64,000 nt of DNA. Origin: an uncultured Gammaproteobacteria bacterium (GTDB lineage: Bacteria > Patescibacteriota > Microgenomatia > UBA10105 > UBA927). The stretch is from the NCBI GenBank assembly GCA_964349125.1, contig CAYGFH010000001.1, positions 562,107 through 626,106 on the forward strand, in the 5' to 3' direction. Made by a program: the position numbers and the translations under genes. The first letter of the stretch is position 1; each line of letters starts with the position of its first letter. Positions 38,844-64,000 of this stretch are shown piece by piece. The notes beneath the pieces are model-generated. The model saw only the letters and a program-made list of their open reading frames with translations, ran no database searches and was not told where the DNA came from.

Positions 38844-38866
38844 GTCCCTCACTTTCAACCATGAAC

Positions 38867-38908
38867 GGTTAACGGTTAACGATTCGCGGTTCGCGATTTA
38901 TGATTTAT
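38867..38908. repeat. Heptanucleotide tandem tract (CGGTTAA CGGTTAA CGATTCG CGGTTCG CGATTTA TGATTTA)
   Basis: Six 7-nt units with consensus CGRTTWA. The tract ends at the stop codon of the convergent ABC-F gene. Confidence 0.6.
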
Positions 38909-50462: not shown

Positions 50463-50498
50463 ACTCACTGACTACGAACCACCAACCATGAACTAACA

Positions 50499-50540
50499 CG
50501 CTTTGCGGTTAACGATTAACGATTAACGATTTGCGATTAC
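50499..50540. repeat. Heptanucleotide tandem tract (CGCTTTG CGGTTAA CGATTAA CGATTAA CGATTTG CGATTAC)
   Basis: Six 7-nt units. It overlaps the stop codon of the DUF2207 gene. Confidence 0.6.
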
Positions 50541-52417
50541 CACTTTCCACCTCCCCCTCCTCCGCCTCCCCCTCCGGAGTAACCACCCCTGCGTCCACCG
50601 GATGAATGAGATGAAAATCCACTGGAAAATCCTCTAGTCGAAGACGTGCGAGTCGGTGTGTAATACGTATTTGAGTTCGACGGGCTATGTGTAAAAGTTT
50701 TAGAGACAGCGTGATGAAACCGAGTGAACACAAAGCCTTGCGTCTGATCATAAGAGGTATACCAACTTGGAACCTTTAACTCCAGCTCTTTAAAACGCGC
50801 TAACCAAATTTTTTCCACTCCAAACGCTATAGCATATGGCAGTAATTTTTCAAACATAAACTGCTTTTCAGACATAAACTCAAATTGCCTATCCTGGCTT
50901 TTCAAAAATTGCTTCAGCGCGATAATCATATTCTTTGTTACCACTCCATATTCAGTTTTTTTTGGCTTCGCATTTTGAATCGTAAGTATGACCACCAATA
51001 GAGGGATATTCACTGTAAGGAATGCCAAAAATGATAAGAATGATTTTGAACTTCGCGATGCATCTATGGGCTTTTCATATATCTTTTCATCTATGCACAT
51101 AGCATGGATCATGTCGTATATGTTCTCTAATTTGTCTGCTATTTCAAGTTCATCAACGTTAACCATCTTAAAATTTATCGTAGAAATTGCTTTATCCAAA
51201 TGATCCAAGTTAAGCTCTGATGATTTTCCGTCAAACACAGTTTTACCATTAATTTCTATCGTTGTATTGCTTTGTGAATCTTCAGTATTTATATACGAAG
51301 GGGTGAATATTACGTTCAATAATTTTTCTTCAAACGGCAGAAGACCTGGATCTTTCATGTTGGTATTCTCTCTGTTGAGTTTTTCAAAATAAAATTCACC
51401 TTTTTTCTTTTCAAAAATTTTTAGATATCCCCTGCGGGCTAAATCGACGATGGTCGCCGTTATTTCCGGCATGCCTGCACTACCATTCAGTATTGTTCCG
51501 CATACTGCGGGTGGATATTCACGTTTTGAGAGTGCTGATTTTGGCACCGAGAATGAAGCACTTGCAATACCCATCGGTACTTTCGGATCTTTACCAAACA
51601 ATTTCCATTTGATGACATACAAAAACGGAAAAACTATAAACCAAAAAACGATCAACACCTGGATCCACTCAGGAATTTGAAGCATTTCTGCACTGCTATC
51701 ACTCAAGGATGCGCGAGGGGTGGCGACTGAAATCGGCATCGGATCTACAACCGAAACTATCTGCTTTGGGAAGCCGGCAAGGATGGTGAATCCTTCTTTC
51801 GGGTTCAAAGTGCGACGAAGTGAAAATTTGTATACACCGGCATAATAACTACTTACACACGCAGCTTCGTTTGATCCTAATATTCCCGTGAAACAATCAA
51901 ACTTCACGTTTTGAGCAGGAATTTTTTCAGGCAATATCACATTGACCACAGAAGAGGTTATGCCATCTTCCCAAGCGTTACCGGTTACGTTCCAATAAAA
52001 TTCGTCATGATCAGAAAAATACGTGATACCCCCTTTTAATTGATAAGAAATTTTGAAGAACTGAGGACCTTTGAGAAATATATTCGGATCACCGATTTTT
52101 ATGCTTATGACACCGGAGGTGTTTGATGTTGAGAATCTGTATGGAACTCCTTTATCGTTCACTACTGTAATATCAGTGATACTCAGTTGAAATTTCTGAT
52201 TGTTCGAATTAGTTTTGACTGTCGGAATATCTCGAAGTATGCCATGCACCGGACTACTACCCAAGTCGTAGAAAATTTTTTCGGTAATTTTTGCCGAGCC
52301 GTCTTTGTGTAACACTATATCCGCATTAAATTCTTTGATCTGGCTTGCAAAAACTGTCTGAGGCACGACAATTGCAAAAAGTATTATCGTTAAGAGTCTC
52401 CAAAGAAACATACGCAT
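50537..52417 (-). CDS. DUF2207-family membrane protein with C-terminal Gly-rich tail
   Basis: Signal peptide, large extracellular domain, TM helices and the characteristic ...SGGRRGGYSGGGGGGGGGGKW terminus. Confidence 0.6.
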   Translation of the reverse strand: MRMFLWRLLTIILFAIVVPQTVFASQIKEFNADIVLHKDGSAKITEKIFYDLGSSPVHGILRDIPTVKTNSNNQKFQLSITDITVVNDKGVPYRFSTSNTSGVISIKIGDPNIFLKGPQFFKISYQLKGGITYFSDHDEFYWNVTGNAWEDGITSSVVNVILPEKIPAQNVKFDCFTGILGSNEAACVSSYYAGVYKFSLRRTLNPKEGFTILAGFPKQIVSVVDPMPISVATPRASLSDSSAEMLQIPEWIQVLIVFWFIVFPFLYVIKWKLFGKDPKVPMGIASASFSVPKSALSKREYPPAVCGTILNGSAGMPEITATIVDLARRGYLKIFEKKKGEFYFEKLNRENTNMKDPGLLPFEEKLLNVIFTPSYINTEDSQSNTTIEINGKTVFDGKSSELNLDHLDKAISTINFKMVNVDELEIADKLENIYDMIHAMCIDEKIYEKPIDASRSSKSFLSFLAFLTVNIPLLVVILTIQNAKPKKTEYGVVTKNMIIALKQFLKSQDRQFEFMSEKQFMFEKLLPYAIAFGVEKIWLARFKELELKVPSWYTSYDQTQGFVFTRFHHAVSKTFTHSPSNSNTYYTPTRTSSTRGFSSGFSSHSSGGRRGGYSGGGGGGGGGGKW

Positions 52418-52514
52418 ACTTCAATTATAGTATCGCTGATCACAAACACCAGATCCTATTTCGAGATTGCGTATGACTACTCTAATCAATCACTCGCATT
52501 CCATCTTTTATAAA

Positions 52515-52577
52515 CGATTTACGCTTTACGATTTACGATTTACGATTAACGTGTAACGGATAGCGATTAACGATATT
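52515..52577. repeat. Heptanucleotide tandem tract (nine 7-nt units, CGATTTA type) in the divergent promoter region between the DUF2207 and nuclease genes
   Basis: Seen directly: CGATTTA CGCTTTA CGATTTA CGATTTA CGATTAA CGTGTAA CGGATAG CGATTAA CGATATT. Confidence 0.6.
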
Positions 52578-52600
52578 CGCTATGGTGCTATAGTAATACT

Positions 52601-53272
52601 ATGCCCACGAAAACTCCCAAGAAGTCGAAGAGCAAGATAGCCACTCGCCCACTTCTCATCGGTATTACAGCAGCGGCGCTTGCGCTTCTCACATCGGTCG
52701 CTTCGTTTAATCAACTGCGCGGAGAGAAGGTCATAGAGGTTATAGACGGAGACACGTATCGTATAGAAAACAGACAAATTGTGCGTCTCTACAGTATCGA
52801 TGCCCCTGATGTGGATGTATGCATGGGGCAAGAAGCGAAAGAGAAACTATCCTCTCTCATTCTCGGTAAACGTATCACACTCCAAAACATCCGCTCGGGC
52901 GGATTTAACAGAGTGATGGGGTATGCATACGTGGATGGCAAATCAGTGGAAACAGAGATGATGAAAGGCGGATATGCAGTACTCACTCGGGGTACCAAGG
53001 AACTACCGGAACTACTGGAATCTAGCACATATGCCAGACAGAAAAAACTCGGCGTGTTTAGTGATGCGTGTTATCAGATGGAAAATAAAGTAAATCCCAA
53101 ATGTAACGTAAAGGGTAATATCGGGGAGACAAAGCAGGACAGATATTATTTCACTCCCTCATGTCCCAACTATACACAGACAGTCGTCTGGACCAGTTTC
53201 GGCGACCGGTGGTTCTGCACAGAGAAAGATGCTGTTGAAGCGGGGTTTGTTAAAGGAACAAAGTGTAAATAA
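52601..53272 (+). CDS. Thermonuclease (staphylococcal nuclease, SNase-like) family protein with Cys-rich C-terminal extension
   Basis: Signal anchor, then SNase core motifs (VIDGDTYRI, YVDG) and a C-terminal CxxC-rich region. Confidence 0.65.
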   Translation: MPTKTPKKSKSKIATRPLLIGITAAALALLTSVASFNQLRGEKVIEVIDGDTYRIENRQIVRLYSIDAPDVDVCMGQEAKEKLSSLILGKRITLQNIRSGGFNRVMGYAYVDGKSVETEMMKGGYAVLTRGTKELPELLESSTYARQKKLGVFSDACYQMENKVNPKCNVKGNIGETKQDRYYFTPSCPNYTQTVVWTSFGDRWFCTEKDAVEAGFVKGTKCK

Positions 53273-53433
53273 TTTATTATCTAATTAATATTTAGTATTC
53301 CCCGAGCCTCAACTCACTATACCAGAAAGTGCCTAGGTTTCTATCCTTCAGACTTTCCAAAATCTAGGCTATATGGTGAAATGAGGCAAAGGTGGAACGA
53401 TAAAAAGAAACTACAAAACACTCCTGCGATTTC

Positions 53434-53919
53434 TTATTGAATAAAGAATATACACAGTCCAGCGTAAATTAATCCAAAAACAATAGGAATATAGAGTTCA
53501 ATATGAGAAAAAGGGAAATATTTACTATTATCTTTGCCTTCTCCCAAAATTTTCCACTCATTTTCATAAAGAGCAATTGGAAGCCTTTCCTCTATTTGAT
53601 GTAATACTTTAAACTTCCCGGTATTTAACTGCTTGTAGGAACGAATTAAAAACCAAAAAATTATGCTGATTATTACTCCAATAGCGGAAAGTAAGATATA
53701 TACCCATTTCGATTCCTGGAAAAATTCGATTTGAGTAGATAAGCCAATTATTGAAATTAAAGCTGTATTTATTGTTAAAAAATAGCTGTTTGCACTCTGT
53801 CTTCTATCGCTTGTTTTTTCAATGCTTTCTACATAAAGCTTATATTGGTCAAATAAATGTTCCTTATAACTCTCTCCATAATTCTTTTCTGATTCTGTAA
53901 ATAATTGATTATTTTTCAT
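53434..53919 (-). CDS. Small 3-TM membrane protein, last gene of the hsd-linked operon (candidate effector)
   Basis: 161 aa with three hydrophobic helices. Its start is 2 nt after the stop of the TIR-like gene. Confidence 0.4.
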   Translation of the reverse strand: MKNNQLFTESEKNYGESYKEHLFDQYKLYVESIEKTSDRRQSANSYFLTINTALISIIGLSTQIEFFQESKWVYILLSAIGVIISIIFWFLIRSYKQLNTGKFKVLHQIEERLPIALYENEWKILGEGKDNSKYFPFSHIELYIPIVFGLIYAGLCIFFIQ

Positions 53920-53921
53920 AG

Positions 53922-54299
53922 CTACCTATTGCCTGCAATTAAAGATTTGATATTATCCCAAGTCCATCGATATGTTTTATCTAATCCTACTGGAACAGGA
54001 CAACTCTTATTTGCATACCCGTGAATGCCGAAATGGGGAATACCAGCTTGAATAGCCATCTGAATCTCTTTAAGCACCCCTTCGCACGCATAGGTATATG
54101 GGCCTACCATAACAATAAAAATGTCACATTGAGAAATCTTCTCGTAGACTCTTTGTTCCCAATTTCTTTGAGCAAATGGTTCTTTAACAGACCAATCAGC
54201 GATTTCAAAAGGAGTGTCTGAATTTCTTGCCTGACCTACAATGGAATCTCTTAAAAATTGGTCATTATCAAAGTCAAAACTTATAAATGCTCTTTTCAT
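53922..54299 (-). CDS. TIR-like domain protein (ThsB/DUF1863-like)
   Basis: N-terminus MKRAFISFDFDND resembles the ThsB/DUF1863 KRVFFSFHYxD start. Downstream segments W...CDIFIVMVGPYT...GVLKEI..A...GIPHFGIHG fit the same family. Confidence 0.5.
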   Translation of the reverse strand: MKRAFISFDFDNDQFLRDSIVGQARNSDTPFEIADWSVKEPFAQRNWEQRVYEKISQCDIFIVMVGPYTYACEGVLKEIQMAIQAGIPHFGIHGYANKSCPVPVGLDKTYRWTWDNIKSLIAGNR

Positions 54300-54304
54300 A
54301 TTCT

Positions 54305-55828
54305 CTACTGCATTCTTTTATTAATAATTACTTTCAAATCATCAATTACCTCGTAACACATATCATCATTCAGTTTTTCAGTAGTATTAAAGTATTCTTT
54401 TGGATGAACGAAATTCCTTTTCTCTCTAATCTTGTCTGCTCTCCTAATTAAATCCTCATCAAAAATTTGTGTATGAACTTTTTTCAATTTCCATAGTAAT
54501 TTCCCAAGTGTGAAATCTTCTGTATCGGGTGAAAAATAATCTTTTTTCTCTACTTCACTCATCCAGTCTAAGAGAAAGGCTTCCAAAACTGAACCTGAGA
54601 GTATTAGAAAGGATTTATAGAGCTTTTTATCAATGCATGTGTTCAATTCCTTTAAATCTCCTTGTATAACCTTCTCAATAACATCTTTTTTAAACATCCG
54701 TAGTACTTCTAATTCTTCAATAATAAATTCCCGTTGAATGGGTTTATCGGGAGTGGCATCATCAAACAATTCCTTATTTATGGCTTGAATAACATCAACT
54801 TTATCTTTTAAGAAAAGTGTCTTGAATACACTCTCTGATTTCTGTTGAGTAATCTTATCAGGCAAGATAACTGGTAACTCTAGTAAATCTTTCGACCTTA
54901 TATGAGGAAAAAAAGTGCCTCTTTGAAATAATTGAATATATTTCATCACAGTCTCACTTTGAAGATAAAGAAAAAGATATTCAGGTGTGATTTCTTCCGA
55001 TTTTGGTCTAATTACTACTAAAAAAGTGGATGAAAAGATAGATTCCTTGAAATCGTCAGTAACGAGATAAAATTTCTTGTTTCCTGAAAATGAATCTGAG
55101 AATAAAATATCTCCTTTTTGTAATCTAATTGTAGTCTGTTGTTCTTCTGAAAGGTCTTTAATACTTAATGGATAGACAAAGTCTTTAGTTTTAATAACAT
55201 GCCCTTTGGAGCCTTCGAGCTTACGAGGTCGTAGTATCTCCGCCAATTCTTTTAATGCCTTAGTTTTTTCTTGCTTTAGCTTCATTAATGCCTGTCGAGA
55301 ATCTGGCTCGTAAAAGCTGATTTGAAGATTATCTAAGTCGATTTCTGAATAATTAAGTTTCCAAATGCTACGGCTTTCATCAGTTGCTTGATTGATAGTG
55401 TCGTTATTAATTGTATTTTCTAAACTAGAAATATAATCTTTGTATGACTTCGTAATTTGTTGTTCACCAATTATTCCAGATTTTCTATAGTCGAGCTTAC
55501 CAGTAAATGTCTCCTTTGAAAGATACTTACTGAAATACACATGCTGAGGCTTACCTTTTTGAATAACTAAAAGTATAAACTTAACATTTGTTGCTGGTTT
55601 CCAAATTTCAGCTAAGTCGAAAATTCCATTAATATACCAGTCATTAAATATTCTTTGCCTTGAATTTACTTCTTTAATTGAATGTAAAAGCATCACTGGA
55701 ACAACTAATCCAACTTTCCCACTATCTGTATTCAATTTAGAGGTTATATATTCTGTTTCAGAGTTTTTTAAACCTGATATCGGATAACTTTTTCGTTCCT
55801 CAATTAATTCCTGAATATCAATTTTCAT
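54305..55828 (-). CDS. HsdS-like protein (degenerate TRD / conserved-helix architecture) fused to an uncharacterised ~170-aa C-terminal domain (possible HEPN-like Rx6H)
   Basis: Central segment ...FLVVIRPKSEEITPEYLFLYLQS...LLELPVILPDKITQQK resembles an HsdS TRD plus the conserved LPLPPLEEQ region. The C-terminal REKRNFVHP is suggestive only. It overlaps hsdS by 11 nt. Confidence 0.45.
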   Translation of the reverse strand: MKIDIQELIEERKSYPISGLKNSETEYITSKLNTDSGKVGLVVPVMLLHSIKEVNSRQRIFNDWYINGIFDLAEIWKPATNVKFILLVIQKGKPQHVYFSKYLSKETFTGKLDYRKSGIIGEQQITKSYKDYISSLENTINNDTINQATDESRSIWKLNYSEIDLDNLQISFYEPDSRQALMKLKQEKTKALKELAEILRPRKLEGSKGHVIKTKDFVYPLSIKDLSEEQQTTIRLQKGDILFSDSFSGNKKFYLVTDDFKESIFSSTFLVVIRPKSEEITPEYLFLYLQSETVMKYIQLFQRGTFFPHIRSKDLLELPVILPDKITQQKSESVFKTLFLKDKVDVIQAINKELFDDATPDKPIQREFIIEELEVLRMFKKDVIEKVIQGDLKELNTCIDKKLYKSFLILSGSVLEAFLLDWMSEVEKKDYFSPDTEDFTLGKLLWKLKKVHTQIFDEDLIRRADKIREKRNFVHPKEYFNTTEKLNDDMCYEVIDDLKVIINKRMQ

Positions 55829-56930
55829 AATTATTTTTCTTGAATGTGTTTTGCATCAATGATTGGAATTGATTATCTAATTCTCGAGACTGCTCAAGCA
55901 TTTTTTGCTTAAGTACTTCAGTGTCCTTAGCAATCATTGCAAAGTCATCTTGTAACTCTATAGGTGGAATAATCATTTTAATTTTTTCAAATTCACCCTT
56001 AGTAAGAATTCTTTTCATACCTCTGGTCGCATGGTCTTGAATATATGTTCTAGAATTTCTTAAAAGCCAGTACAAAAATAAAGAGTTTATCTTTTTATTA
56101 GGCTGAATAGCATTAATTTGTTGATTGAATGACACTTTTCTATCAGCAATTGCAACTCGCCCAATAGATGCAATGCTACCAGCAATACAAGCCATTAGAA
56201 CTGCTCCAGACGTAACAAATCTAGCCTTATTTAGGCCGTTCTCCGATAGATATTCGCTAGCATTAGTTATATACAGATTTTCTTCTACAATATTGTCAGT
56301 TTTTATCCATTCAATAAATCTGGATGAATAATTGTCTTTTTCATTGCGAGAAGGAGTATTGCCAGTTATTATTTCTCCAAAGGACTTCAATTCCGACTTC
56401 TCCCAACTTTTCGAGTTAGAAATTGGGTCTCCAAACATTTCTATAAAGACTGACTTTATGTATTCATCTAGTAAGCCTGTTGTCTGCTTCCGCTTTTGTC
56501 GAAGGGCTTCGGCTTTGTCTAGGATATTTACAATATTTCTTTGTTCAGTGATTGAAAGCAAGGGTATTTCGGGGTCAGTTAAATTGTTTAATTTAATATA
56601 TTTAATCACTCCTCCAATAGATAATTGTCTCAATTTTTCTACATATTTAAATAAAAACCAATAAAGGTATTTTGTATCTAAAATCGTCTCATCTAAGCTC
56701 TCAATAATATAAGTTCTTTGATAGGCATCAAACTTTCCTTCATAGTACTTCACATTTAAGTCTCCGTTTCCAGCGACTAGCACACATTTGCAGTCATAAG
56801 TATAGGAGTTGATTTTGTATGTATCTTTAGAGCAAGTAAAAAAAGGGTATGCGCCATCATCAGAGCCCGCATTAGCATCCAGCTTACCTGTTTTAATTTT
56901 TGTTAATCTTCCAAGTTGACTAGTATTCAT
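55818..56930 (-). CDS. hsdS: Type I restriction-modification specificity subunit HsdS
   Basis: Two TRDs separated by a conserved central helix, an HsdS-type N-terminus and a 4-nt gap to hsdM. Confidence 0.8.
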   Translation of the reverse strand: MNTSQLGRLTKIKTGKLDANAGSDDGAYPFFTCSKDTYKINSYTYDCKCVLVAGNGDLNVKYYEGKFDAYQRTYIIESLDETILDTKYLYWFLFKYVEKLRQLSIGGVIKYIKLNNLTDPEIPLLSITEQRNIVNILDKAEALRQKRKQTTGLLDEYIKSVFIEMFGDPISNSKSWEKSELKSFGEIITGNTPSRNEKDNYSSRFIEWIKTDNIVEENLYITNASEYLSENGLNKARFVTSGAVLMACIAGSIASIGRVAIADRKVSFNQQINAIQPNKKINSLFLYWLLRNSRTYIQDHATRGMKRILTKGEFEKIKMIIPPIELQDDFAMIAKDTEVLKQKMLEQSRELDNQFQSLMQNTFKKNNYEN

Positions 56931-56933
56931 ACT

Positions 56934-58445
56934 CTACTTTAGCTTTAAAAGACCATCCATAATTTCTTTTTCCAGTTTTTCAATCTTTTCTAATATTATT
57001 TTTGGCGAGTCATATTTGACCTCCTTATAATCGGCATCCTTGTAACTATTGATGCTTAGGTCGTATTTATTTGCTTCTATTTCTTTTCTAGGTACAAAAA
57101 AGACTTTTTGTTTACGATCAGTATCAGTCTGCTGATTTCTACTTTTCCATTTGCTAATAATGTCTGGAATATCGTTATCTGTAATTCTTGCTCTTTTATC
57201 ATCAAGACTATAGCCATCTGATTGCATATCGTAGAACCAGATACTTTCTGTGCTTCCACCTTTTACAAATATCAAAACTGCGGTGCTCACCCCTGCATAA
57301 GGCTTGAATACTCCTGATGGCATGGAAATTACACCTTGAAGCTCACAATCATCAATCAGCATCTTTCGCAAATTCTTGTGAGCGTTTGAAGAACCAAAGA
57401 GGACACCATCTGGAACAATAACGCCAGCTCGGCCACCAATCTTGAGGGATTTGATGATTCGGTTAATGAAAAGTAGTTCTGTTTTAGTTGTCGGAAGAGA
57501 TAGTGACTCATTGATATCACCCTTATCAATACTTCCTTTGAATGGAGGATTGGCCATGATGACATCGAAATAGTTGTCTTCATCATATTTTTTGGACAAC
57601 GTATCTTTTTGTTCTATGTTTGGAATTGAAATACCATGCATCATTAAGTTCATGAGGCCAATACGAACCATACTGTCGTCCATGTCATAGCCGTAGAATG
57701 TTTTTTCTTTAAGTTGTTTCCATTGGCGTTCATCAGTGAGTTTGTCGCCTAATAGTCCGCGGGTAAGGTCATTTTCATCAGTGGTTTGGTGCTCCTTACT
57801 GGTGTGAGCAGTCAAGATATGCTGATAAGCACCTAAGAGGAAACCACCAGTCCCGCAGGCGGGATCACAGATTGTGTCACCAAGCTTTGGGTCGACAAGT
57901 TCGCAGATGAGCTGGATGATATGTCTTGGGGTTCTAAATTGACCTAATTTACCGGCACTCGTTATTTCTGCAAGCAAATGTTCGTACACATCACCCTGAG
58001 TATCCTGAAATCCTTGTCCTTTTTGTTCTTGTTGAGAAATTTCTTCATAAATTTCATCGATGATGTTGATAGACTCCACAACTAACGAAGGTTTGGAGAT
58101 AATGAACACTGCATTTCCCATGTGTTTCGAGTAGGCGCTATTTTCGGAGTTTAGATTTTTAAGGAAAGGAAATACTTTTGTTTGAATGTGGGTCAGCATC
58201 TCACCACCTTCCAAGTGCCGGAAGTGACTCCAACGCATGTTTTCATTTTCACCTGCAAAAATTGACTTGTAGGATTCACCAGTAAATTCAGAGTCATGCA
58301 TCTTCTTTAAATCCATTTGATCAAGCCGTTTCATGAATAGTAGATATGAAATCTGTTCTATGGCGGTGAGTGGATTAGAAATTCCACCACTCCAAAATTT
58401 ATCCCATAGCCGATCGATTGATGATTTGATAGTAGTGTTAAGCAT
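56934..58445 (-). CDS. hsdM: Type I restriction-modification N6-adenine DNA methyltransferase HsdM
   Basis: HsdM N-terminal domain with the catalytic motif IV NPPF (IMANPPFKG) and motif I DPACGTGGFL. Confidence 0.9.
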   Translation of the reverse strand: MLNTTIKSSIDRLWDKFWSGGISNPLTAIEQISYLLFMKRLDQMDLKKMHDSEFTGESYKSIFAGENENMRWSHFRHLEGGEMLTHIQTKVFPFLKNLNSENSAYSKHMGNAVFIISKPSLVVESINIIDEIYEEISQQEQKGQGFQDTQGDVYEHLLAEITSAGKLGQFRTPRHIIQLICELVDPKLGDTICDPACGTGGFLLGAYQHILTAHTSKEHQTTDENDLTRGLLGDKLTDERQWKQLKEKTFYGYDMDDSMVRIGLMNLMMHGISIPNIEQKDTLSKKYDEDNYFDVIMANPPFKGSIDKGDINESLSLPTTKTELLFINRIIKSLKIGGRAGVIVPDGVLFGSSNAHKNLRKMLIDDCELQGVISMPSGVFKPYAGVSTAVLIFVKGGSTESIWFYDMQSDGYSLDDKRARITDNDIPDIISKWKSRNQQTDTDRKQKVFFVPRKEIEANKYDLSINSYKDADYKEVKYDSPKIILEKIEKLEKEIMDGLLKLK

Positions 58446-61248
58446 GTTGGAAAATTTGATTCGTAAAGTTTAATATTTCAAACTGCATTGATTTATCAAA
58501 TAATCCCAAGATTCCATTTTCATGAATTTTGGTAAATGGCTCCTGAACCAAATCTTTCTTGGTTAGTGATCCATTCTCGATAATAAATGTTTGCAGAGTC
58601 TGTAAAAATTGAATCTGCTTGGAACTTAAGGTATTGTGATCAGCGATGAATTCAGCAAATGCCACTGACACTTTTTCTGGAAAAGTTACTAGGCCACCAA
58701 TCCCCATAATGTATTTAATTAAATCAAGAAATCTAACTTGGCGGGCATCATAGGCTTTTTGAAGGTTTTCTTCGGTTGGATATGGTTCGTATTCAGCGAG
58801 TGTTTGAGCCAACTCATCGATTTCTTCACCAGTAATGCTGTCACCGTTTTTAATCCTTCTTAAAGTATCATTTTCCTCTTCTAATTTTTTGATCAATGCT
58901 TCAACTTTTTCGCGATACTTTTGAATAGTCACACGCTCATTGGCGGGACCAAATTTGATATACATTTTTTCTGAGGTTATATCGCGCAAATCAAAGGCAT
59001 CCTGACTTGGCTTAATACCTTCCTCTCGATACTTCATGAGAGGAGCTATTCGATCAATCAAAACATCAAGGTCGGCATCCGTGGCTTTAGCTAGATATCC
59101 GCTATGTAGCACTTCCTCAATCAAATCCTTTTCGTTGGCAACCACATTAACAGTGAGCGGTAAGTCGGATACCATTTCAATCAACACATTTTCGAGCGCA
59201 CTGACTTTCTTTTCTTGATTGTCAGCTTGAGAAAATTTGGCAATCGAATACTGCATGACTTTTAACTCAAAACTCATTGCCTTGTAGTCCTCACCTGTCC
59301 GCGTTCTCATAAGTGGTGCAATGTCTTTTTGAAGTAATGCGAGTTTGTCTTCATTTAGTCGTGCCCAAAATTGTTCATCGAGCGCATCGAGGGTATTTTT
59401 TGCGTCAAGGATAATCACATTATTTTCAGGCAACTTTTTAACCTCGTCCTTTAGTTTTTGGATGGTTGTTTGAATTAGGACTTCATCACTTAGTGATTGG
59501 GCGACCGAGAGTTTTTCGAGCTTGGTTTCAAATAACCTGACTGGAATCGGTTTGGATTGACGATCAATCTTGCCTTTAGGATTCATTTCAAAATAATCAA
59601 AGTTTTCCCAACAATCCATTATTAAGAACTTATCTTTTTGGGTGCACCAAGGCTTAAGTTTCTTTGGCTCTAATATGCGGGTGCCACGACCAATCATTTG
59701 CCAGAATTTGGTATACGAAAAAACAGGTTTGGCAAAAACAAGATTGACCAATTCTCGAACATCAATTCCGGTATCAAGCATATCAACACTGATGGCGATT
59801 CTTGGGAAATCATTGTTCACAAACTGATCAAGCAAGCCACCTTTACCGTAGACTCGAGAGTCATCTGAAACGATCACTTTAGCAAAATTACCTTTATGTT
59901 CTGGGTATAAGTCATCGAAAATTTCTTGAAGCCGTCTCGCGTGCTTCATGGTCATAGCAAAAATAACGGATTTACCAGGGAGTGTTCCGCTATTATCTTT
60001 TATGGATTCTTCCATGAATTCCTGTACGATCAGTGCATTGGTTCCACGATTCGTGACCTTTTTTTCGAGATCAGTGCCCTCATAGTTTATTTCTTCTGGT
60101 TCTTTTCCGTCTGAAATCAGCCGCTGTTGCTCTGCGAGTGAAATATTAGTTTTTCTAATGCCTTCCTTTTGAAATTTTGTGCGGATTTTGAGTACTTCAA
60201 AGTCACTCAGATACGGCGGTTTGTTGTTGATAGCTTCTTCGTATGAATATGCATATGTCGGCAGACCATCATCACAATTAAATAGACTGAAAGTGTTATG
60301 TTCTACTGCATCTTTTGGCGTAGCCGTTAATCCAAGTTGGACTGTGTCAAAATAATCAAAAATGTTTTTGTAGACGTTATAAATCGAACGGTGACTTTCA
60401 TCAGCTACAATCAAATCAAAGAAGTGTGGACTAAGTGGACAGTCTTTATTCTCAATGATATTTAACATGGTTGGATATGTCGCAGAATAGATACGTCTAT
60501 CTGTTGCGATTTCAGTCTCCCCAATTTTTGGCCAAACTGGGGCATTAGGGATATATTCCTTAAATGCGTCTAGAGCTTGATTACGAAGCGCAATTCGATC
60601 TACAAGAAATAATACTCGTTGAACTCTATTTGTTCTCATTAGAACATCCATCATGGCAGCGCATGTTCTTGTTTTTCCGGTTCCAGTAGCCATAACAAGC
60701 AAGGCTTTTCTTTTACCTTTATCCATGTTTTCAAATACAGAACGGATTGCTTCAATCTGGTATGGGCGACCAGCTATATCACGATTAATTAATTCTTGAG
60801 AAATTGGCTTCTGATTTTTTCTTAAAAAGAGTAGTCGTTCTAAATCTTTTTTGGTGGGGAATCCATAAACTTTTCGAGGCGGGAATTTTTCTGTGTCCCA
60901 GAAATAAATATCATTGCCATTGGTGTAGAAAACAAACGGCATATCTTTGCCAGAATTCTTTTGAATGTTAACTGCATATTGTCTGGCTTGTTCCTGTCCT
61001 ATACGAGCATCCCTTGAAGTTTTTTTTGCCTCTACAACTGCCAAAGGATATCCATCATCACCGAGTAATACATAGTCAGCAAATTGATGTCCTTGATATT
61101 CGGATTGCTGCTCTCTAACTCCTTCAGGCAATCCGATCCATATATCCAATTCTGATGTGACATGAGAAGGATCATCTACATCCCATCCAGATTTCAGTAA
61201 GCGCTTATCAATTATTTCTTTTCTAGTTAATTCTTCACTCTTATACAT
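58438..61248 (-). CDS. hsdR: Type I restriction enzyme R subunit HsdR
   Basis: N-terminal nuclease region and SF2 helicase motifs (LVMATGTGKT, DESH in IVADESHRS). About 936 aa. Overlaps hsdM by 8 nt. Confidence 0.9.
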   Translation of the reverse strand: MYKSEELTRKEIIDKRLLKSGWDVDDPSHVTSELDIWIGLPEGVREQQSEYQGHQFADYVLLGDDGYPLAVVEAKKTSRDARIGQEQARQYAVNIQKNSGKDMPFVFYTNGNDIYFWDTEKFPPRKVYGFPTKKDLERLLFLRKNQKPISQELINRDIAGRPYQIEAIRSVFENMDKGKRKALLVMATGTGKTRTCAAMMDVLMRTNRVQRVLFLVDRIALRNQALDAFKEYIPNAPVWPKIGETEIATDRRIYSATYPTMLNIIENKDCPLSPHFFDLIVADESHRSIYNVYKNIFDYFDTVQLGLTATPKDAVEHNTFSLFNCDDGLPTYAYSYEEAINNKPPYLSDFEVLKIRTKFQKEGIRKTNISLAEQQRLISDGKEPEEINYEGTDLEKKVTNRGTNALIVQEFMEESIKDNSGTLPGKSVIFAMTMKHARRLQEIFDDLYPEHKGNFAKVIVSDDSRVYGKGGLLDQFVNNDFPRIAISVDMLDTGIDVRELVNLVFAKPVFSYTKFWQMIGRGTRILEPKKLKPWCTQKDKFLIMDCWENFDYFEMNPKGKIDRQSKPIPVRLFETKLEKLSVAQSLSDEVLIQTTIQKLKDEVKKLPENNVIILDAKNTLDALDEQFWARLNEDKLALLQKDIAPLMRTRTGEDYKAMSFELKVMQYSIAKFSQADNQEKKVSALENVLIEMVSDLPLTVNVVANEKDLIEEVLHSGYLAKATDADLDVLIDRIAPLMKYREEGIKPSQDAFDLRDITSEKMYIKFGPANERVTIQKYREKVEALIKKLEEENDTLRRIKNGDSITGEEIDELAQTLAEYEPYPTEENLQKAYDARQVRFLDLIKYIMGIGGLVTFPEKVSVAFAEFIADHNTLSSKQIQFLQTLQTFIIENGSLTKKDLVQEPFTKIHENGILGLFDKSMQFEILNFTNQIFQHA

Positions 61249-61289
61249 AATTCAGGGAATAGAATATTAAAATTACTTGACAGACATGA

Positions 61290-61507
61290 CCAAATTATAC
61301 TCCCCTCACGCACAAATTACGATCAGATATGTTATGTATTACCGAAGTTAACGCTCGGCCCATCCGATGATTCAGAACCTCCCATCCTAGCCTCAAATCT
61401 AGCTGTATCACCCACTATTTCCTTGATTTTTATACGCTCGAGCGTGAGAAAATCAAGAGCGCTTCCGATTCACTGGTACGTACTCAACCACCTCGGAGGT
61501 GGAAAGG
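61290..61507. repeat. Copy 1 of a ~220-bp direct repeat immediately upstream of hsdR
   Basis: Near-identical to the copies at 62281-62519 and 63272-63490. Contains the 36-bp imperfect palindrome CTTGATTTTTATACGCTC|GAGCGTGAGAAAATCAAG (61422-61457), a CCACCTCGGAGGTGG palindrome, and a TATAAT on the minus strand pointing at hsdR. Confidence 0.8.
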
Positions 61508-61547
61508 TATGTAATTTTGTTTATGGTTTTTGAACATTAATGGGTAA

Positions 61548-62273
61548 TTATTGGGAATTCTTTGGAAGTAATTCCAACAATGTGCTGGAAATTGTTCCCA
61601 CCTGATCTGAAGTTAGCACCATTGGATTTTCTTGAATTGATCTCAATAGCCATTTGGAACCTATAACCAATACCCCATCGATCGGCTTCATGCCAAAACG
61701 CAACACTGCATACGGACTAGAGAAAACTAAAATTGGCTTAATTCGTGGGGAAACAATATTTTTGTTATGTAAATAATCATCCAATCGGATGGCACTCCCA
61801 CGAGATTGTTTCAAAAAACCTCCTTCAAAAATCCCATGCACATACAGCTTATTGTCGCTATAACATATATTCCCCACATGACTTTTCACTTCCAATGCAA
61901 ATACTCCGGTCGGCCCAATGACAACAAAGTCTATATTCGAGGTCAATGGCGGAATTATTAAATTTTCTATGATCACATATTCATGAGACAATTGAAGGAG
62001 TACAGCTCGAACATCCGCCTCCCCGCCCAAACCTCTTGCCAATCGTCGCAATTTCCATAACGTTCTTTCAATTGGACCACGCATGATGATATAGAAAATT
62101 AATAGCAAGCTTCCTGCGATATTTGAACCAAGATGCGGAAATCCAAATGAGAACAAATACACCCAATATGTAATTATTGCGACAAAGAATATATACACGA
62201 GAAACAGACCATCAGTTTTGTGAGAAAATTTTTGTTCAATAAGATAGATATCTTTACCGTATATCTTTGCCAT
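61548..62273 (-). CDS. NERD (nuclease-related domain) protein with two N-terminal TM helices
   Basis: NERD signature GLGGEADVRAVLLQL...NIDFVVIGPTGVFALEVKSH. Confidence 0.75.
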   Translation of the reverse strand: MAKIYGKDIYLIEQKFSHKTDGLFLVYIFFVAIITYWVYLFSFGFPHLGSNIAGSLLLIFYIIMRGPIERTLWKLRRLARGLGGEADVRAVLLQLSHEYVIIENLIIPPLTSNIDFVVIGPTGVFALEVKSHVGNICYSDNKLYVHGIFEGGFLKQSRGSAIRLDDYLHNKNIVSPRIKPILVFSSPYAVLRFGMKPIDGVLVIGSKWLLRSIQENPMVLTSDQVGTISSTLLELLPKNSQ

Positions 62274-62280
62274 ACTAAAA

Positions 62281-62519
62281 CTATACTCTCCCCATTCACA
62301 AATTACACTTGAGAAAGATCAAGTGTAAACGATCGGATGTGTTATGTATCACCGTAACTCAAACCAGGCCCTTCCGATGAGTTAGAACCGCCCATCCTAG
62401 CCTCAAATCTAGCTGTATCACCCACTATTTCCTTGATTTTTATACGCTCGAGCGTGAGAAAATCAAGAGCGCTCGGGTCCTCGTACTGTGTGATGCTCAC
62501 CTCGAAGGTGGCAAAAGTA
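62281..62519. repeat. Copy 2 of the ~220-bp direct repeat (upstream of the NERD gene), with a 20-bp palindromic insertion CACTTGAGAAAGATCAAGTG
   Basis: The core CCATCCTAGCCTCAAATCTAGCTGTATCACCCACTATTTCCTTGATTTTTATACGCTCGAGCGTGAGAAAATCAAGAGCGCT is identical to copy 1. Confidence 0.8.
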
Positions 62520-63254
62520 TTAGTTTCCGAGTAGTTTGATGATTGCTTCGAAGTGATCTGAACCTAAGTTTTTTTTCGAAAGATAGACGCCCCTGGGATT
62601 CTTATGTTTCACGTAATACGGATAGTCTGTTAATTCCGGAACAGCTTTAATCCAAAATCGTTCCATCCGAGTCATAATCACGTAAGCTTTCTTTTTCATT
62701 AATTCTCTCAGAAGATAAAACGTATAGTTTTGAGATTCAGGATACTGATCAGGATATAGAAGGCGTTTAGATCTATACGGGAAGTATTCCATAAATAATA
62801 CTTTGTTTGCCACATTTTCCCAGTTTAAACCTATATGTTCATGTAATCCTCGGGTATGCATCCAATACCAGCAGCGACTAGCTGTTCCATCTGTATAAAC
62901 CCATTCCCTATATTTTGGTGTCATTGAGTAAATCCCAGGAGTATTTAAATGAAATAAATTCTTATAATCAAGGTCCATAATGTCTTGGTAGTCAGGTCTT
63001 AATGACAATTTTGAATCATGGCCGGGATTTGCCTGTAATACTATAACTTTTGCAGTATGTGGATTACCGAAATATGGAAATGGTATATCCTCTGTATGTA
63101 ATGAATACGTGTCGATAATTTTATTTTTCTTTTCTTCACCTGAATATCTGGAAACGATTTTCTGTAATTTCTTTTGATATTCTAAAACCCACTCCTGATC
63201 AACATCCAAAATATATGGTTGTCGTTTGCTGAGTGTATTCCATGGATTTTCCAT
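62520..63254 (-). CDS. Hypothetical protein (244 aa) between two repeat copies in the defence island
   Basis: ORF with no recognisable motif. Its upstream region carries repeat copy 3. Confidence 0.35.
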   Translation of the reverse strand: MENPWNTLSKRQPYILDVDQEWVLEYQKKLQKIVSRYSGEEKKNKIIDTYSLHTEDIPFPYFGNPHTAKVIVLQANPGHDSKLSLRPDYQDIMDLDYKNLFHLNTPGIYSMTPKYREWVYTDGTASRCWYWMHTRGLHEHIGLNWENVANKVLFMEYFPYRSKRLLYPDQYPESQNYTFYLLRELMKKKAYVIMTRMERFWIKAVPELTDYPYYVKHKNPRGVYLSKKNLGSDHFEAIIKLLGN

Positions 63255-63271
63255 AATTACATTAATTTTCT

Positions 63272-63490
63272 CAAATTATACTCCCCTCACGCACAAATTA
63301 CGATCAGGTGTGATATTTTCACCGAAGTAAACGTTCGGCCCTTCCGATGAGTCAGAACCGCCCATCCTAGCCTCAAATCTAGCTGTATCACACACTATTT
63401 CCTTGATTTTTATACGCTCGAGCGTGAAAAAATCAAGAGCGCTGCGATTCACTGGTACGTACTCAACCACCTCGAAACCGAAAGATGTTT
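63272..63490. repeat. Copy 3 of the ~220-bp direct repeat
   Basis: About 90% identical to copy 1 by eye over its full length. Confidence 0.8.
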
Positions 63491-63517
63491 CAACAAATAC
63501 TAAATCTTTGTTATTTG

Positions 63518-63625
63518 GCCTCGTTTTTGAATGCCACCTCGGAGGTGGAAGATGATCCGCAAGAATTTTAAAATTCACCCCAAATTTAGCCTCGTTTTTT
63601 ACTACCACCTCGGAGGTGGAAGTTG
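63518..63625. repeat. Two 37-bp direct repeats (GCCTCGTTTTTGAATGCCACCTCGGAGGTGGAAGATG and GCCTCGTTTTTTACTACCACCTCGGAGGTGGAAGTTG) separated by a 34-bp spacer. Each contains the CCACCTCGGAGGTGG palindrome.
   Basis: Seen directly. A degenerate third unit lies at about 63465-63488. Confidence 0.6.
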
Positions 63626-63667
63626 AAATAGGATTATCCCTAGACTTACGACAGCGAAGCGATAGGT

Positions 63668-64000
63668 TTACCGTGATAATCTCAAAAGTTCTTGTGTGAG
63701 TGACGTCATGTCCAATATCCTCTTCCCGTCTACTACCTGTGCCGTGGAATACAGCACCCTTCGAATTGCTTCGGGATCTCTTCCTACAACCTGGGCAATT
63801 GCGCAGCACGCGGCAGATACATATGGGGCCGCAGCCGAGTGAGACTCAGGCACGACTCGTTTATATCCACGTACAGGTATTTCTATTTCTCCGGGTGCAT
63901 ATATATCAATTCTCTGCTCGTCATTCGATTCGATAAATTGTCCCTTCTGAGTGATACCTCCCACCACTACTGTGTTGGAAAAGAATCCATAGGAATCATC
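63668..64000 (-). CDS. Subtilisin-like (S8) serine peptidase, C-terminal part; 5' end lies beyond the window
   Basis: The frame is open to the window edge. DIYAPG (subtilisin D-I-V-A-P-G) and the Ser-region SHSAAAPYVSAACCAIAQV (subtilisin GTSMAAPHVAGAAALI). Confidence 0.55.
   Translation of the reverse strand, partial: DDSYGFFSNTVVVGGITQKGQFIESNDEQRIDIYAPGEIEIPVRGYKRVVPESHSAAAPYVSAACCAIAQVVGRDPEAIRRVLYSTAQVVDGKRILDMTSLTQELLRLSR

What the first reader, a model, noticed from the sequence alone, without database searches (positions are those of the whole stretch)
61548..63254. Membrane-anchored NERD nuclease and an uncharacterised 244-aa gene as stand-alone candidate defence genes
NERD-domain proteins are recurrent in defence islands. 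This one has two N-terminal TM helices, so is membrane-tethered. Its neighbour (62520..63254) has no recognisable domain but the same upstream repeat module and sits between a NERD gene and an S8 protease gene fragment. Both are candidates for uncharacterised anti-phage functions.
Basis: partly seen in the sequence, partly recalled or inferred. Interest (0 to 1): 0.5.

Follow-up and report, generated by a model that had tools for sequence, protein, structure and literature searches.

The report
Brig1-like glycosylase plus membrane NERD nuclease
The "domain-less" 244-aa gene encodes a divergent uracil-DNA-glycosylase-fold protein distantly related to the anti-phage glycosylase Brig1, and with the neighbouring membrane-anchored NERD nuclease it forms a gene pair that recurs next to restriction-modification systems, so the two are a plausible but untested two-gene defence module, not two stand-alone genes.

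Summary
Both ORFs are real. Their start codons are confirmed by homologues.

**NERD gene (61548..62273, minus strand).** It is a bona fide NERD protein (Pfam E=5e-15). Its E85/D115/E128-x-K130 nuclease tetrad is intact. It has a two-segment hydrophobic N-terminus that is conserved in all 7 relatives examined.

**244-aa gene (62520..63254, minus strand).**
- It has no Pfam domain, but it is not featureless.
- Its only library hit is the anti-phage glycosylase Brig1, far below the family cut-off. The same holds for 40 of 43 family members.
- It belongs to a large unannotated family of 2,780 cluster representatives.

**"Stand-alone" is not supported.**
- In another lineage the orthologous pair (55% and 34% identity) is separated by 3 nt and followed by a type II R-M system.
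- Other close relatives are followed directly by RadC plus type I R-M, or by an HNH nuclease.
- The closest NERD homologue precedes a type IIG R-M system.

**Caveat.** The broad family has mixed, often housekeeping, neighbourhoods.

**Other points.** The shared upstream module is real, with three copies found only in this genome. It sits in a cluster of REP-like hairpins near a RAYT-like gene. The "S8 fragment" is only a window-edge cut.

**Verdict.** A new variant of a known kind (antiviral glycosylase), of moderate interest.

The parts
62520..63254 (-). 244-aa gene: divergent UDG-superfamily, Brig1-related putative DNA glycosylase
61548..62273 (-). 241-aa gene: NERD (PD-(D/E)xK-type) nuclease with an N-terminal two-helix membrane hairpin
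   Evidence: Pfam NERD E=5e-15. E85, D115, E128 and K130 are invariant in the 6-sequence alignment A6, and the same motifs at constant spacing are present in the L050 homologue. Two hydrophobic segments are present in 7 of 7 homologues. The AlphaFold model shows a helical hairpin followed by an alpha/beta core.
63272..63487 (-). Repeat module copy upstream of the 244-aa gene (degenerate hairpin, conserved core, TATAAT-like end)
   Evidence: the repeat finder families D1 and D3; alignment A2.
62277..62511 (-). Repeat module copy between the 244-aa gene and the NERD gene (hairpin CCACCTTCGAGGTG starts 8 nt after the stop codon)
61291..61502 (-). Repeat module copy between the NERD gene and hsdR
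63534..63619 (.). Two further REP-like hairpins, CCACCTCSGAGGTGG (63534-63548 and 63605-63619), between the S8 gene and the module
   Evidence: 3 matches in the window against 0 in 100 shuffles
55818..61248 (-). Type I R-M operon directly downstream on the same strand: hsdR 58438..61248, hsdM 56934..58445, hsdS 55818..56930
   Evidence: PADLOC REase_I E=3e-167 and MTase_I E=3e-180; Methylase_S
63668..64000 (-). 3' part of a small S8 peptidase gene, cut by the window end and complete in the source contig
   Evidence: Peptidase_S8 E=1.9e-9

Best explanation
The two genes are the upstream part of a composite defence locus.

**The 244-aa protein.** It is a single-domain enzyme with the uracil-DNA-glycosylase fold, from a large unannotated family that is a distant sister of the anti-phage glycosylase Brig1. 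By analogy with MUG, TDG and Brig1, three elements would form a base-flipping pocket:
- the Asn76-Pro77-Gly78 loop directly after strand 1;
- Glu156 and the F-P-Y-x-S segment at the end of the next core strand;
- an N-P-x-G...L-S loop after the last strand.

The pocket would excise a non-canonical (phage-modified) base and leave abasic sites.

**The 241-aa protein.** It is a PD-(D/E)xK NERD endonuclease held at the inner face of the membrane by a two-helix hairpin.

**Proposed mechanism.** The glycosylase marks invading DNA that the adjacent R-M system cannot cut. The abasic sites then block replication, are converted into breaks by the NERD nuclease, or both.

**What is shown:** fold, motifs, gene pairing, R-M adjacency.
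**What is inferred:** glycosylase activity, substrate, nuclease target, cooperation, anti-phage effect.

In this genome, REP-like hairpins and a ~210-nt repeated module have been inserted between the genes.
For: **Fold and family**
- AlphaFold pLDDT 90.9, pTM 0.89.
- Brig1 (NF047634) is the only NCBIfam hit for the protein (E=5.6e-5) and for 40 of 43 family members (best 8.5e-16).
- N76-P77 are invariant and G78, W129, F158-P159 and S162 nearly invariant in 43 sequences.
- hhalign places the LNPG motif on MUG's catalytic GINPG (weak).

**Pairing**
- In L049, L050 and L051 the UDG-like gene (55% identity) is followed after 3 nt by a TM-NERD gene (34% identity, E=5e-40; HMM E=7.5e-55).
- After a further 13 nt comes a 393-aa gene, with a convergent Eco57I-type N6-methyltransferase beyond it.

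**Other close relatives of the 244-aa protein**
- One is followed after 10 nt by RadC, HsdM and AAA_13.
- One is followed after 9 nt by an HNH nuclease.

**NERD**
- The closest TM-NERD homologue (47% identity) directly precedes a type IIG R-M system.
- The NERD tetrad has the same spacing as ZwsA E535/D567/E580/K582, which were shown to be required for ZwsA defence against an RNA phage; K582A served as the inactive control in the RNA-cleavage assays (10.64898/2026.04.06.716636).

**Precedents**
- Brig1 and Brig2 show that UDG-fold enzymes can be antiviral (PMC11078745; 10.1101/2025.10.29.685425).
- A Brig1 homologue lies next to a type I hsdR gene.
- No intrinsic terminator is predicted between the genes.
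Against: - There is no experiment of any kind.
- The Brig1 score is 22.7 bits against a cut-off of 230. Foldseek matches are weak (E=0.013, TM 0.3-0.4).
- No direct alignment to Brig1 Y121/E147 was possible, because no Brig1 sequence was available.
- The pair is seen in only two independent lineages.
- In 36 MAG loci of the broad family, no NERD neighbour was found. The 134 neighbours were heterogeneous and mostly housekeeping, with only a few defence hits. Two of the individually inspected loci also look metabolic.
- More distant TM-NERD homologues sit in cell-wall or miscellaneous contexts.
- In this window each gene has its own upstream module, so co-expression is not assured.
Confidence: 0.5

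Rival explanations
1. One reading: two independent, stand-alone single-gene defence systems that merely share a defence island. A Brig1-like glycosylase acts alone, as Brig1 does, and a separate membrane NERD nuclease also acts alone.
For: Brig1 and Brig2 protect as single genes (PMC11078745). ZwsA is a stand-alone NERD effector. In the window each gene has its own copy of the promoter-like module, with 246-299-nt spacers. L011 has the TM-NERD gene without the UDG-like gene. L001 and L052 have the UDG-like gene without NERD.
Against: The gap between the two genes in L049-L051 is 3 nt, at 55% and 34% identity, while the surrounding genes differ. Every close relative of the 244-aa gene with context (4 of 4) is followed within 3-12 nt, or here 246 nt, by a nuclease, RadC or R-M gene.
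Confidence: 0.22
2. Neither gene is a defence gene. The 244-aa protein would be a DNA-repair glycosylase of a new UDG family acting on ordinary lesions. The TM-NERD protein would have a cell-envelope or division role like S. aureus SmdA. Both would lie in a variable region by chance.
For: The broad family has mostly housekeeping or mixed neighbours in 36 MAG loci and in L007 and L008. SmdA is a membrane-anchored NERD protein needed for cell division (PMC9040797). The TM-NERD homologue P0270 overlaps an upstream gene in a Mur-ligase, DivIC and glycosyltransferase cluster.
Against: SmdA lacks the most conserved NERD residues, whereas this protein keeps the full E/D/ExK tetrad. The genes sit in a ~15-kb island of R-M, TIR, NERD and RadC genes next to a RAYT-like gene. 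The closest relatives of both genes are R-M-adjacent. Family distribution is sporadic: the family also occurs on Streptomyces plasmids, one copy 5.6 kb from cas3, and beside a serine recombinase.
Confidence: 0.18
3. The UDG-like protein is an accessory or alternative restriction subunit: a base-excision restriction enzyme, or a repair or control factor tied to the neighbouring methyltransferase. On this view it does not read phage base modifications.
For: It lies immediately upstream of three different R-M arrangements: type I here, a 393-aa gene plus Eco57I-type methyltransferase in L050, and RadC-HsdM-AAA_13 in L001. Restriction glycosylases exist, namely the R.PabI family (PMC10273834).
Against: The type I system here is complete (R, M and S) without it. 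The partner R-M type varies, which argues against a specific subunit role. R.PabI-type enzymes have a different fold. Most family members have no methyltransferase nearby.
Confidence: 0.1

Closest known systems
Brig1 (NCBIfam NF047634; Hossain et al. 2024, PMC11078745), an anti-phage UDG-superfamily glycosylase that excises alpha-glucosyl-5hmC
   Same: Single-domain protein of about 220-260 aa with the UDG fold. It is the only significant library hit for the protein and for 40 of 43 family members. It is located in defence islands, and one Brig1 homologue sits next to a type I hsdR gene. An acidic residue (E156 here) lies at the end of the core strand, the position assigned to Brig1 E147.
   Different: 22.7 bits against the 230-bit equivalog cut-off. 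PGAP annotates family members as hypothetical. The family has its own hallmark motifs (N-terminal MxNPW, LNPG, EYFPY[HR]S, PSQxYxF). The substrate is unknown. The gene is paired with a nuclease gene. The family is much larger than the 42 Brig1 homologues reported.
MUG/TDG and SMUG1 (UDG families 2 and 3)
   Different: No sequence-level hit to any solved structure with either family profile. hhalign probability is below 1%. There are extra N-terminal helices and insertions. The gene is not in a repair-gene context here.
Brig2 (Getz et al. 2025, bioRxiv 10.1101/2025.10.29.685425), a UDG-like defence enzyme against phages with modified thymidine
   Same: A UDG-fold protein with at most 20% identity to Brig1. 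It has hundreds of homologues across phyla and is often near mobile elements or defence genes.
   Different: The Brig2 sequence was not obtainable here, so identity with this family could not be tested. The reported taxonomy (mainly Pseudomonadota and Bacillota) differs from this family's (Chloroflexota, Planctomycetota, Acidobacteriota, Patescibacteria).
ZwsA and other defence-associated NERD proteins (PglW and MAD6 N-terminal NERD domains)
   Same: The NERD domain has the same E...D...ExK tetrad and spacing. There are weak hits to the MAD6 and PglW N-termini.
   Different: ZwsA is a large soluble multidomain RNA endonuclease. PglW and MAD6 are kinases. This protein is a 241-aa NERD-only protein with a membrane hairpin.
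SmdA (S. aureus membrane-anchored NERD protein, cell division)
   Same: An N-terminal membrane anchor plus a cytoplasmic NERD-like domain.
   Different: SmdA has one TM helix, lacks the most conserved NERD residues, and is essential and conserved in its family. This protein keeps the catalytic tetrad and lies in a variable island.

Membership tests
UDG (uracil-DNA glycosylase) superfamily | Alpha/beta fold with a central parallel sheet shared by UDG families 1-6 | tested here: met
UDG (uracil-DNA glycosylase) superfamily | Motif 1: a water-activating or positioning loop directly after strand 1 (GQDPY, GINPG, GMNPG, GEAPG) | tested here: met
   L73-Q-A-N76-P77-G78 follows strand 70-74 of the model. 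L73, N76 and P77 are invariant and G78 is at least 90% conserved in 43 sequences. hhalign aligns the motif to MUG GINPG.
UDG (uracil-DNA glycosylase) superfamily | Motif 2: a DNA-intercalating loop after the last strand (HPSPLS or NPSGLS) | tested here: inconclusive
   N220-P-R-G-V-Y-L-S227 follows strand 214-216, and the family consensus is NPxNPxIS. The resemblance is by eye only. No residue-level structural alignment was available.
UDG (uracil-DNA glycosylase) superfamily | N-glycosidic bond cleavage activity | not testable with these tools
   This needs a biochemical assay.
Brig1 family (NCBIfam NF047634, equivalog) | HMM score at or above the curated cut-off of 230 bits | tested here: not met
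   22.7 bits, E=5.6e-5. Among 10 members scanned individually the highest score was 49.2 bits. Across all 43 members the best E-value was 8.5e-16 and none approached the cut-off.
Brig1 family (NCBIfam NF047634, equivalog) | Pocket residues Y121 (stacking) and E147 (essential) as defined by mutagenesis | tested here: inconclusive
   E156 is invariant in the close set and is E or Q in the wider family. It lies at the end of strand 152-156, the position equated with Brig1 E147 and S. tokodaii UDG N82. W129 is a possible stacking residue. No Brig1 sequence could be obtained for a direct alignment.
NERD domain (Pfam PF08378) | Pfam score above the gathering threshold | tested here: met
   56.4 bits against 22.1, E=5e-15, residues 81-185 covering profile positions 2-111 of 111.
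NERD domain (Pfam PF08378) | PD-(D/E)xK-type catalytic residues E, D and ExK | tested here: met
   E85, D115, E128 and K130 are invariant in the 6-sequence alignment A6, and the GE, IDF and EVK motifs recur at constant spacing in all 7 homologues including L050. They lie on helix 46-92 and strands 113-120 and 123-130 of the model. The spacing matches ZwsA's mutagenised tetrad.
SmdA-like membrane NERD cell-division proteins | Conserved housekeeping locus and a degenerate NERD catalytic site | tested here: not met
   The tetrad is intact. The gene lies in a variable R-M island. The nearest homologues are also R-M-adjacent.
R.PabI-type restriction glycosylases | HALFPIPE fold paired with a cognate methyltransferase | tested here: not met
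   The fold is UDG-like. The review names only the R.PabI superfamily as restriction glycosylases.
REP/RAYT element (for the intergenic hairpins) | Short palindromic repeats clustered around and flanking a Y1 (HUH) transposase gene | tested here: inconclusive
   There are 11 hairpins, all within 6.3 kb, with 2+2 flanking the 270-279-aa gene. The Y1_Tnp hit is 20.7 bits, below the 23-bit cut-off. There is no PDB hit. HUH-like NHFHLLV and a YIHLNP motif are present.
Brig2 family | Sequence homology to Brig2 | not tested
   The sequence is not in the held text or supplements; the tables are truncated.

The most novel reading that the evidence does not exclude
The pair is a previously undescribed two-component restriction module. 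A UDG-fold glycosylase removes a phage-specific modified base. A membrane-tethered NERD endonuclease then cuts the abasic DNA at the point of genome entry. The module rides at the 5' end of different R-M systems to cover phages whose modifications defeat those systems.
Probability: 0.25. Interest if true: 0.72.

Novelty: new variant of a known kind. Interest (0 to 1): 0.55.

Why it matters
Antiviral DNA glycosylases (Brig1, Brig2, Brig3, Dag) are a very recent class, and each known example works as a single gene.

A large sister family of Brig1 with no Pfam or NCBIfam model would widen that class to phyla known mainly from metagenomes. It comprises 2,780 cluster representatives, and every member that carries a source name is called hypothetical protein.

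A conserved link to a membrane-anchored nuclease and to R-M systems would suggest how base excision is coupled to DNA destruction, and how bacteria back up R-M systems against hypermodified phages.

The enzyme could also become a reagent for mapping a modified base.

Tried and rejected
**Sequence and profile searches**
- Sequence search of solved structures with two family profiles gave no UDG hit.
- Pfam gave nothing for 43 members. PHROGs and PADLOC gave only noise for the 244-aa protein.
- hhalign against E. coli MUG aligned only the NPG motif, at under 1% probability.

**Structure libraries**
- The AFDB Foldseek library was unavailable.
- The BFVD viral library gave only weak UDG-like hits.

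**Reference sequences**
- Neither the Brig1 nor the Brig2 sequence could be retrieved from the papers or their supplements.

**Related loci**
A six-sequence subset worked.
- The family is nearly absent from IMG/VR by pattern scan: 1 locus. It is rare in phage records, with 2 unannotated metagenomic contigs. I therefore rejected a phage-borne origin.
- TM-NERD had no match in plasmid or phage collections.

**Repeat module**
- Rfam gave no match at the gathering threshold anywhere in the window. An E-value scan of 52000-64000 gave only one chance-level hit, outside the modules.
- Exact-pattern scans of genome and metagenome collections gave 0 hits.
- The module is absent from all related loci.
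- Three near-identical copies allow no covariation test.
- Only the 37-nt palindrome folds consistently. The z-scores for the three transcribed-strand (minus-strand) copies are +0.48, +0.48 and -3.22. I therefore rejected a structured-RNA reading as unsupported.
- The consensus sigma-70 scan did not flag the module's TTGATT/TATAAA pair, because the sixth base of the -10 element is A.

**Organism**
- The organism could not be named, because no source names its proteins.
Full report
**Observation**

The minus strand carries ORFs at 61548..62273 (241 aa) and 62520..63254 (244 aa). They lie directly upstream, on the same strand, of hsdR (58438..61248), hsdM and hsdS.

Both start codons are supported by homologues. 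All 43 aligned relatives of the 244-aa protein begin M-x-N-P-W. Relatives of the NERD protein begin MAKI/F.

A module of about 210 nt precedes each of the 244-aa gene, the NERD gene and hsdR. Its 145-nt core is 81-90% identical between copies without gaps, and the central ~110 nt are almost identical.

**The NERD gene**

- Pfam NERD scores 56.4 bits (cut-off 22.1, E=5e-15) over residues 81-185.
- The PD-(D/E)xK-type residues E85, D115, E128 and K130 are invariant in a six-sequence alignment. They are also present in a seventh homologue, with constant spacing.
- That spacing (30, 13, 2) mirrors E535/D567/E580/K582 of ZwsA. ZwsA is a NERD endonuclease in which these residues were shown by mutagenesis to be needed for defence against an RNA phage; K582A served as the inactive control in the RNA-cleavage assays.
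- All seven homologues have two hydrophobic segments within the first ~70 residues.
- The AlphaFold model (pLDDT 78.8) shows helices 5-44 and 46-92, followed by an alpha/beta core. E85 lies on the helix and D115 and E128-x-K130 on consecutive strands.
- Residues 65-80 are rich in Arg and Lys. By the positive-inside rule (inference), the nuclease domain is cytoplasmic.

**The 244-aa gene**

*Library and homologue searches*
- Pfam finds nothing for it or for any of 43 relatives.
- NCBIfam gives one hit, the anti-phage DNA glycosylase Brig1: E=5.6e-5, 22.7 bits, against a 230-bit cut-off.
- Brig1 is also the only hit for 40 of 43 family members, best E=8.5e-16.
- A word-indexed search found only 7 homologues. 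An exhaustive profile search found 2,780 cluster representatives at E<=1e-3 and 580 at E<=1e-30.
- Members are mostly single-domain proteins of 215-235 aa. Every member that carries a source name is called hypothetical protein.

*Structure*
- An AlphaFold model built on 7 sequences is confident: pLDDT 90.9, pTM 0.89.
- Foldseek gives the same proteins at the top but weakly: E=0.013, TM 0.3-0.4.

*Motifs*
- L-Q-A-N76-P-G directly after strand 70-74 is the position and chemistry of the MUG/TDG/SMUG G-(I/M)-N-P-G loop. hhalign aligns the two, though not significantly.
- E156 lies at the end of strand 152-156. This is the position that the Brig1 paper equates with its essential E147.
- N220-P-R-G-V-Y-L-S after the last strand resembles MUG's N-P-S-G-L-S.

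*Assignment.* The protein is a divergent UDG-fold putative glycosylase, in a sister family to Brig1. It is not a Brig1 equivalog.

**Context of the pair**

The window's own contig, fetched as L003, extends the island beyond the window end. The gene order is:

1. RadC
2. a RAYT-like gene
3. a 107-aa membrane protein
4. a second NERD gene (362 aa)
5. a 101-aa ORF
6. a complete S8 peptidase (264-269 aa)
7. the UDG-like gene
8. TM-NERD
9. hsdRMS
10. a 507-aa Methylase_S-like gene
11. a ThsB-like TIR protein
12. an 8xMP membrane protein
13. SNase, on the opposite strand

The decisive result comes from relatives:

| Locus | Relation to the window genes | Arrangement |
|---|---|---|
| L049, L050, L051 | UDG-like 55% identical; TM-NERD 34% identical (E=5e-40; HMM E=7.5e-55) | UDG-like, 3-nt gap, TM-NERD, 13-nt gap, 393-aa gene with an HNH-like HVHHILPRH motif, then a convergent Eco57I-type N6-methyltransferase |
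| L001, L002 | UDG-like 54% identical | UDG-like, 10-nt gap, RadC, HsdM, AAA_13 |
| L052 | UDG-like 45% identical | UDG-like, 9-nt gap, HNH endonuclease |
| L011 | TM-NERD 47% identical | TM-NERD directly precedes a type IIG MmeI-like R-M enzyme, beside homologues of the SNase and DUF2207 genes that flank the island in the window |

- All four contexts available for the close subfamily of the 244-aa protein place it immediately upstream of nuclease or R-M genes.
- All three close TM-NERD homologues precede an R-M system, each of a different type.
- "Stand-alone" is therefore not the best description.

**Limits of the defence inference**

- Eight loci were inspected individually for the wider family. 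Some are mobile or defence-like:
  - beside a serine recombinase, with a ParB-methylase and a terminase-like gene nearby;
  - in a WYL/AAA/HD cluster;
  - with PemK, HNH, DUF2779, PIN and RadC genes.
- Others look metabolic.
- 36 further loci came from species-representative genomes, all MAGs. The phyla include Chloroflexota, Planctomycetota, Acidobacteriota and Patescibacteria.
- In those loci, 134 genes within three positions showed no recurrent partner and only scattered defence hits. These were 2 Mrr_cat, 2 serine recombinases, a type IV restriction enzyme, a MAD6-like kinase and a few others. No NERD neighbour was found.
- More distant TM-NERD proteins lie in a cell-wall cluster or among miscellaneous small genes.
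- S. aureus SmdA shows that a membrane-anchored NERD protein can serve in cell division. SmdA, however, lacks the conserved NERD residues.
- The family is almost absent from viral collections. It is present on three Streptomyces plasmids, one copy 5.6 kb from cas3.

**Repeat module and hairpins**

- The hairpin CCACCTCSGAGGTGG occurs 3 times in the window, against 0 in 100 shuffles.
- It occurs at 11 sites in L003. All lie in the 6.3 kb between RadC and hsdR, in intergenic DNA. Two copies sit on each side of a 270-279-aa gene.
- That gene has HUH-like NHFHLLV and YIHLNP motifs and a sub-threshold Y1_Tnp hit of 20.7 bits against 23.
- This looks like a REP/RAYT cluster, but membership is not proven.
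- The longer module was found only at the three sites here. It is absent from all related loci and from exact-pattern scans of the genome and metagenome collections.
- It contains a 37-nt palindrome, CTTGATTTT..ACGCTCGAGCGT..AAAAATCAAG, that embeds TTGATT-N16-TATAAA. It ends in GAGTATAAT.
- Only the palindrome folds consistently. Rfam has no match at the gathering threshold. Three near-identical copies allow no covariation test.
- No intrinsic terminator is predicted between the genes.
- My reading (inference): a hairpin-associated element carrying promoter- or operator-like sequence was inserted between genes that are contiguous in L050. It may give each unit its own, possibly co-regulated, promoter.

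**Mechanism proposed**

*Shown:* a UDG fold with an MUG-type Asn loop; an intact NERD tetrad; a membrane hairpin; recurrence of the pair; R-M adjacency.

*Inferred:*
- the glycosylase excises a non-canonical base from invading DNA, as Brig1 does for alpha-glucosyl-5hmC and Brig2 for modified thymidines;
- the resulting abasic sites stall replication;
- the membrane-tethered NERD nuclease cleaves the damaged DNA or acts in parallel;
- the module complements the neighbouring R-M system against modified phages.

I put about 0.85 on the fold and domain assignments, about 0.55 on an anti-phage role, and about 0.25-0.3 on true cooperation of the two proteins.

**Comparison and novelty**

- The protein is not a member of the Brig1 equivalog family, because the cut-off is not met. 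It is homologous to that family and plausibly works like it.
- Whether it equals the Brig2 family could not be tested.
- Restriction glycosylases of the R.PabI type have a different fold.
- I found no description of a UDG-like/TM-NERD pair in the literature searches.

**Verdict.** A new variant of a known kind. Interest is moderate (0.55).

Noticed in passing
window 61488-61502, 62498-62511, 63534-63548, 63605-63619; L003 5506-11753: REP-like hairpins, CCACCTCSGAGGTGG usually followed by AAAAAnGAGGCTAAA, occur at 11 intergenic sites confined to 6.3 kb of the island. Two copies lie on each side of a RAYT-like Y1-transposase gene (L003 5517-6329; Y1_Tnp 20.7 bits, below the cut-off). There are none elsewhere in the 64-kb window.
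   Followed up: partly
window 61291-61502, 62277-62511, 63272-63487: A module of about 210 nt is present three times, upstream of hsdR, the NERD gene and the 244-aa gene. It contains a 37-nt palindrome embedding TTGATT-N16-TATAAA and ends in GAGTATAAT. It was found nowhere else: not in the related loci, nor in exact-pattern scans of the genome and metagenome collections. It may be a promoter/operator cassette, but its function is unknown.
   Followed up: partly
window 53434-54299 (minus strand): A ThsB-like TIR protein (125 aa, PF08937 E=6.8e-9) is immediately followed by an 8xMP octameric membrane protein (161 aa, PF24838 E=1.3e-42), directly downstream of the type I R-M operon. This could be a TIR plus membrane-effector defence pair. 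A literature search for '8xMP' found nothing relevant.
   Followed up: no
window 54305-55828 (minus strand): A 507-aa gene overlaps the end of hsdS. It has a Methylase_S domain plus weak TaqI_C and N6_Mtase hits. It may be a second specificity-like or remnant type IIG-like gene inside the R-M operon.
   Followed up: no
L003 6924-9587 (beyond the window end): There is a second NERD gene (362 aa, with a long N-terminal helical region), a 101-114-aa ORF, and a complete small S8 peptidase (264-269 aa) with no signal peptide evident by eye (not tested). They lie upstream of the 244-aa gene, each separated by REP-like hairpins.
   Followed up: partly
L003 4835-5497; L001 7512-8198; L009 10578-11231; L013 about 9212-9990: A RadC (JAB/MPN) gene lies within 5 kb of the UDG-like family gene in four independent loci. 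It is directly adjacent in two of them (L001/L002 and L013). This is far more often than expected for a roughly single-copy gene.
   Followed up: partly
window 38851-38905, 50498-50552, 52514-52575: Runs of heptamer repeats (ACGATTA, ACGGTTA, ACGATTT) lie in intergenic DNA. The two nearer the island flank the DUF2207 and SNase genes at the island border.
   Followed up: no
window 52601-53272 (plus strand); L011 8255-8935: A staphylococcal-nuclease homologue with a C-terminal 'sunset' domain borders the island. Its homologue (43% identity) borders the TM-NERD/type IIG R-M locus in a related genome. This suggests a shared integration hot spot.
   Followed up: partly
proteins P0148, P0209, P0046, P0030, P0015: The UDG-like domain also occurs fused to other regions. 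One is an N-terminal DUF6508 (PF20118, E=3.7e-29). Another is a ~500-aa N-terminal extension. There are also C-terminal extensions of ~100-140 aa with no Pfam match.
   Followed up: no
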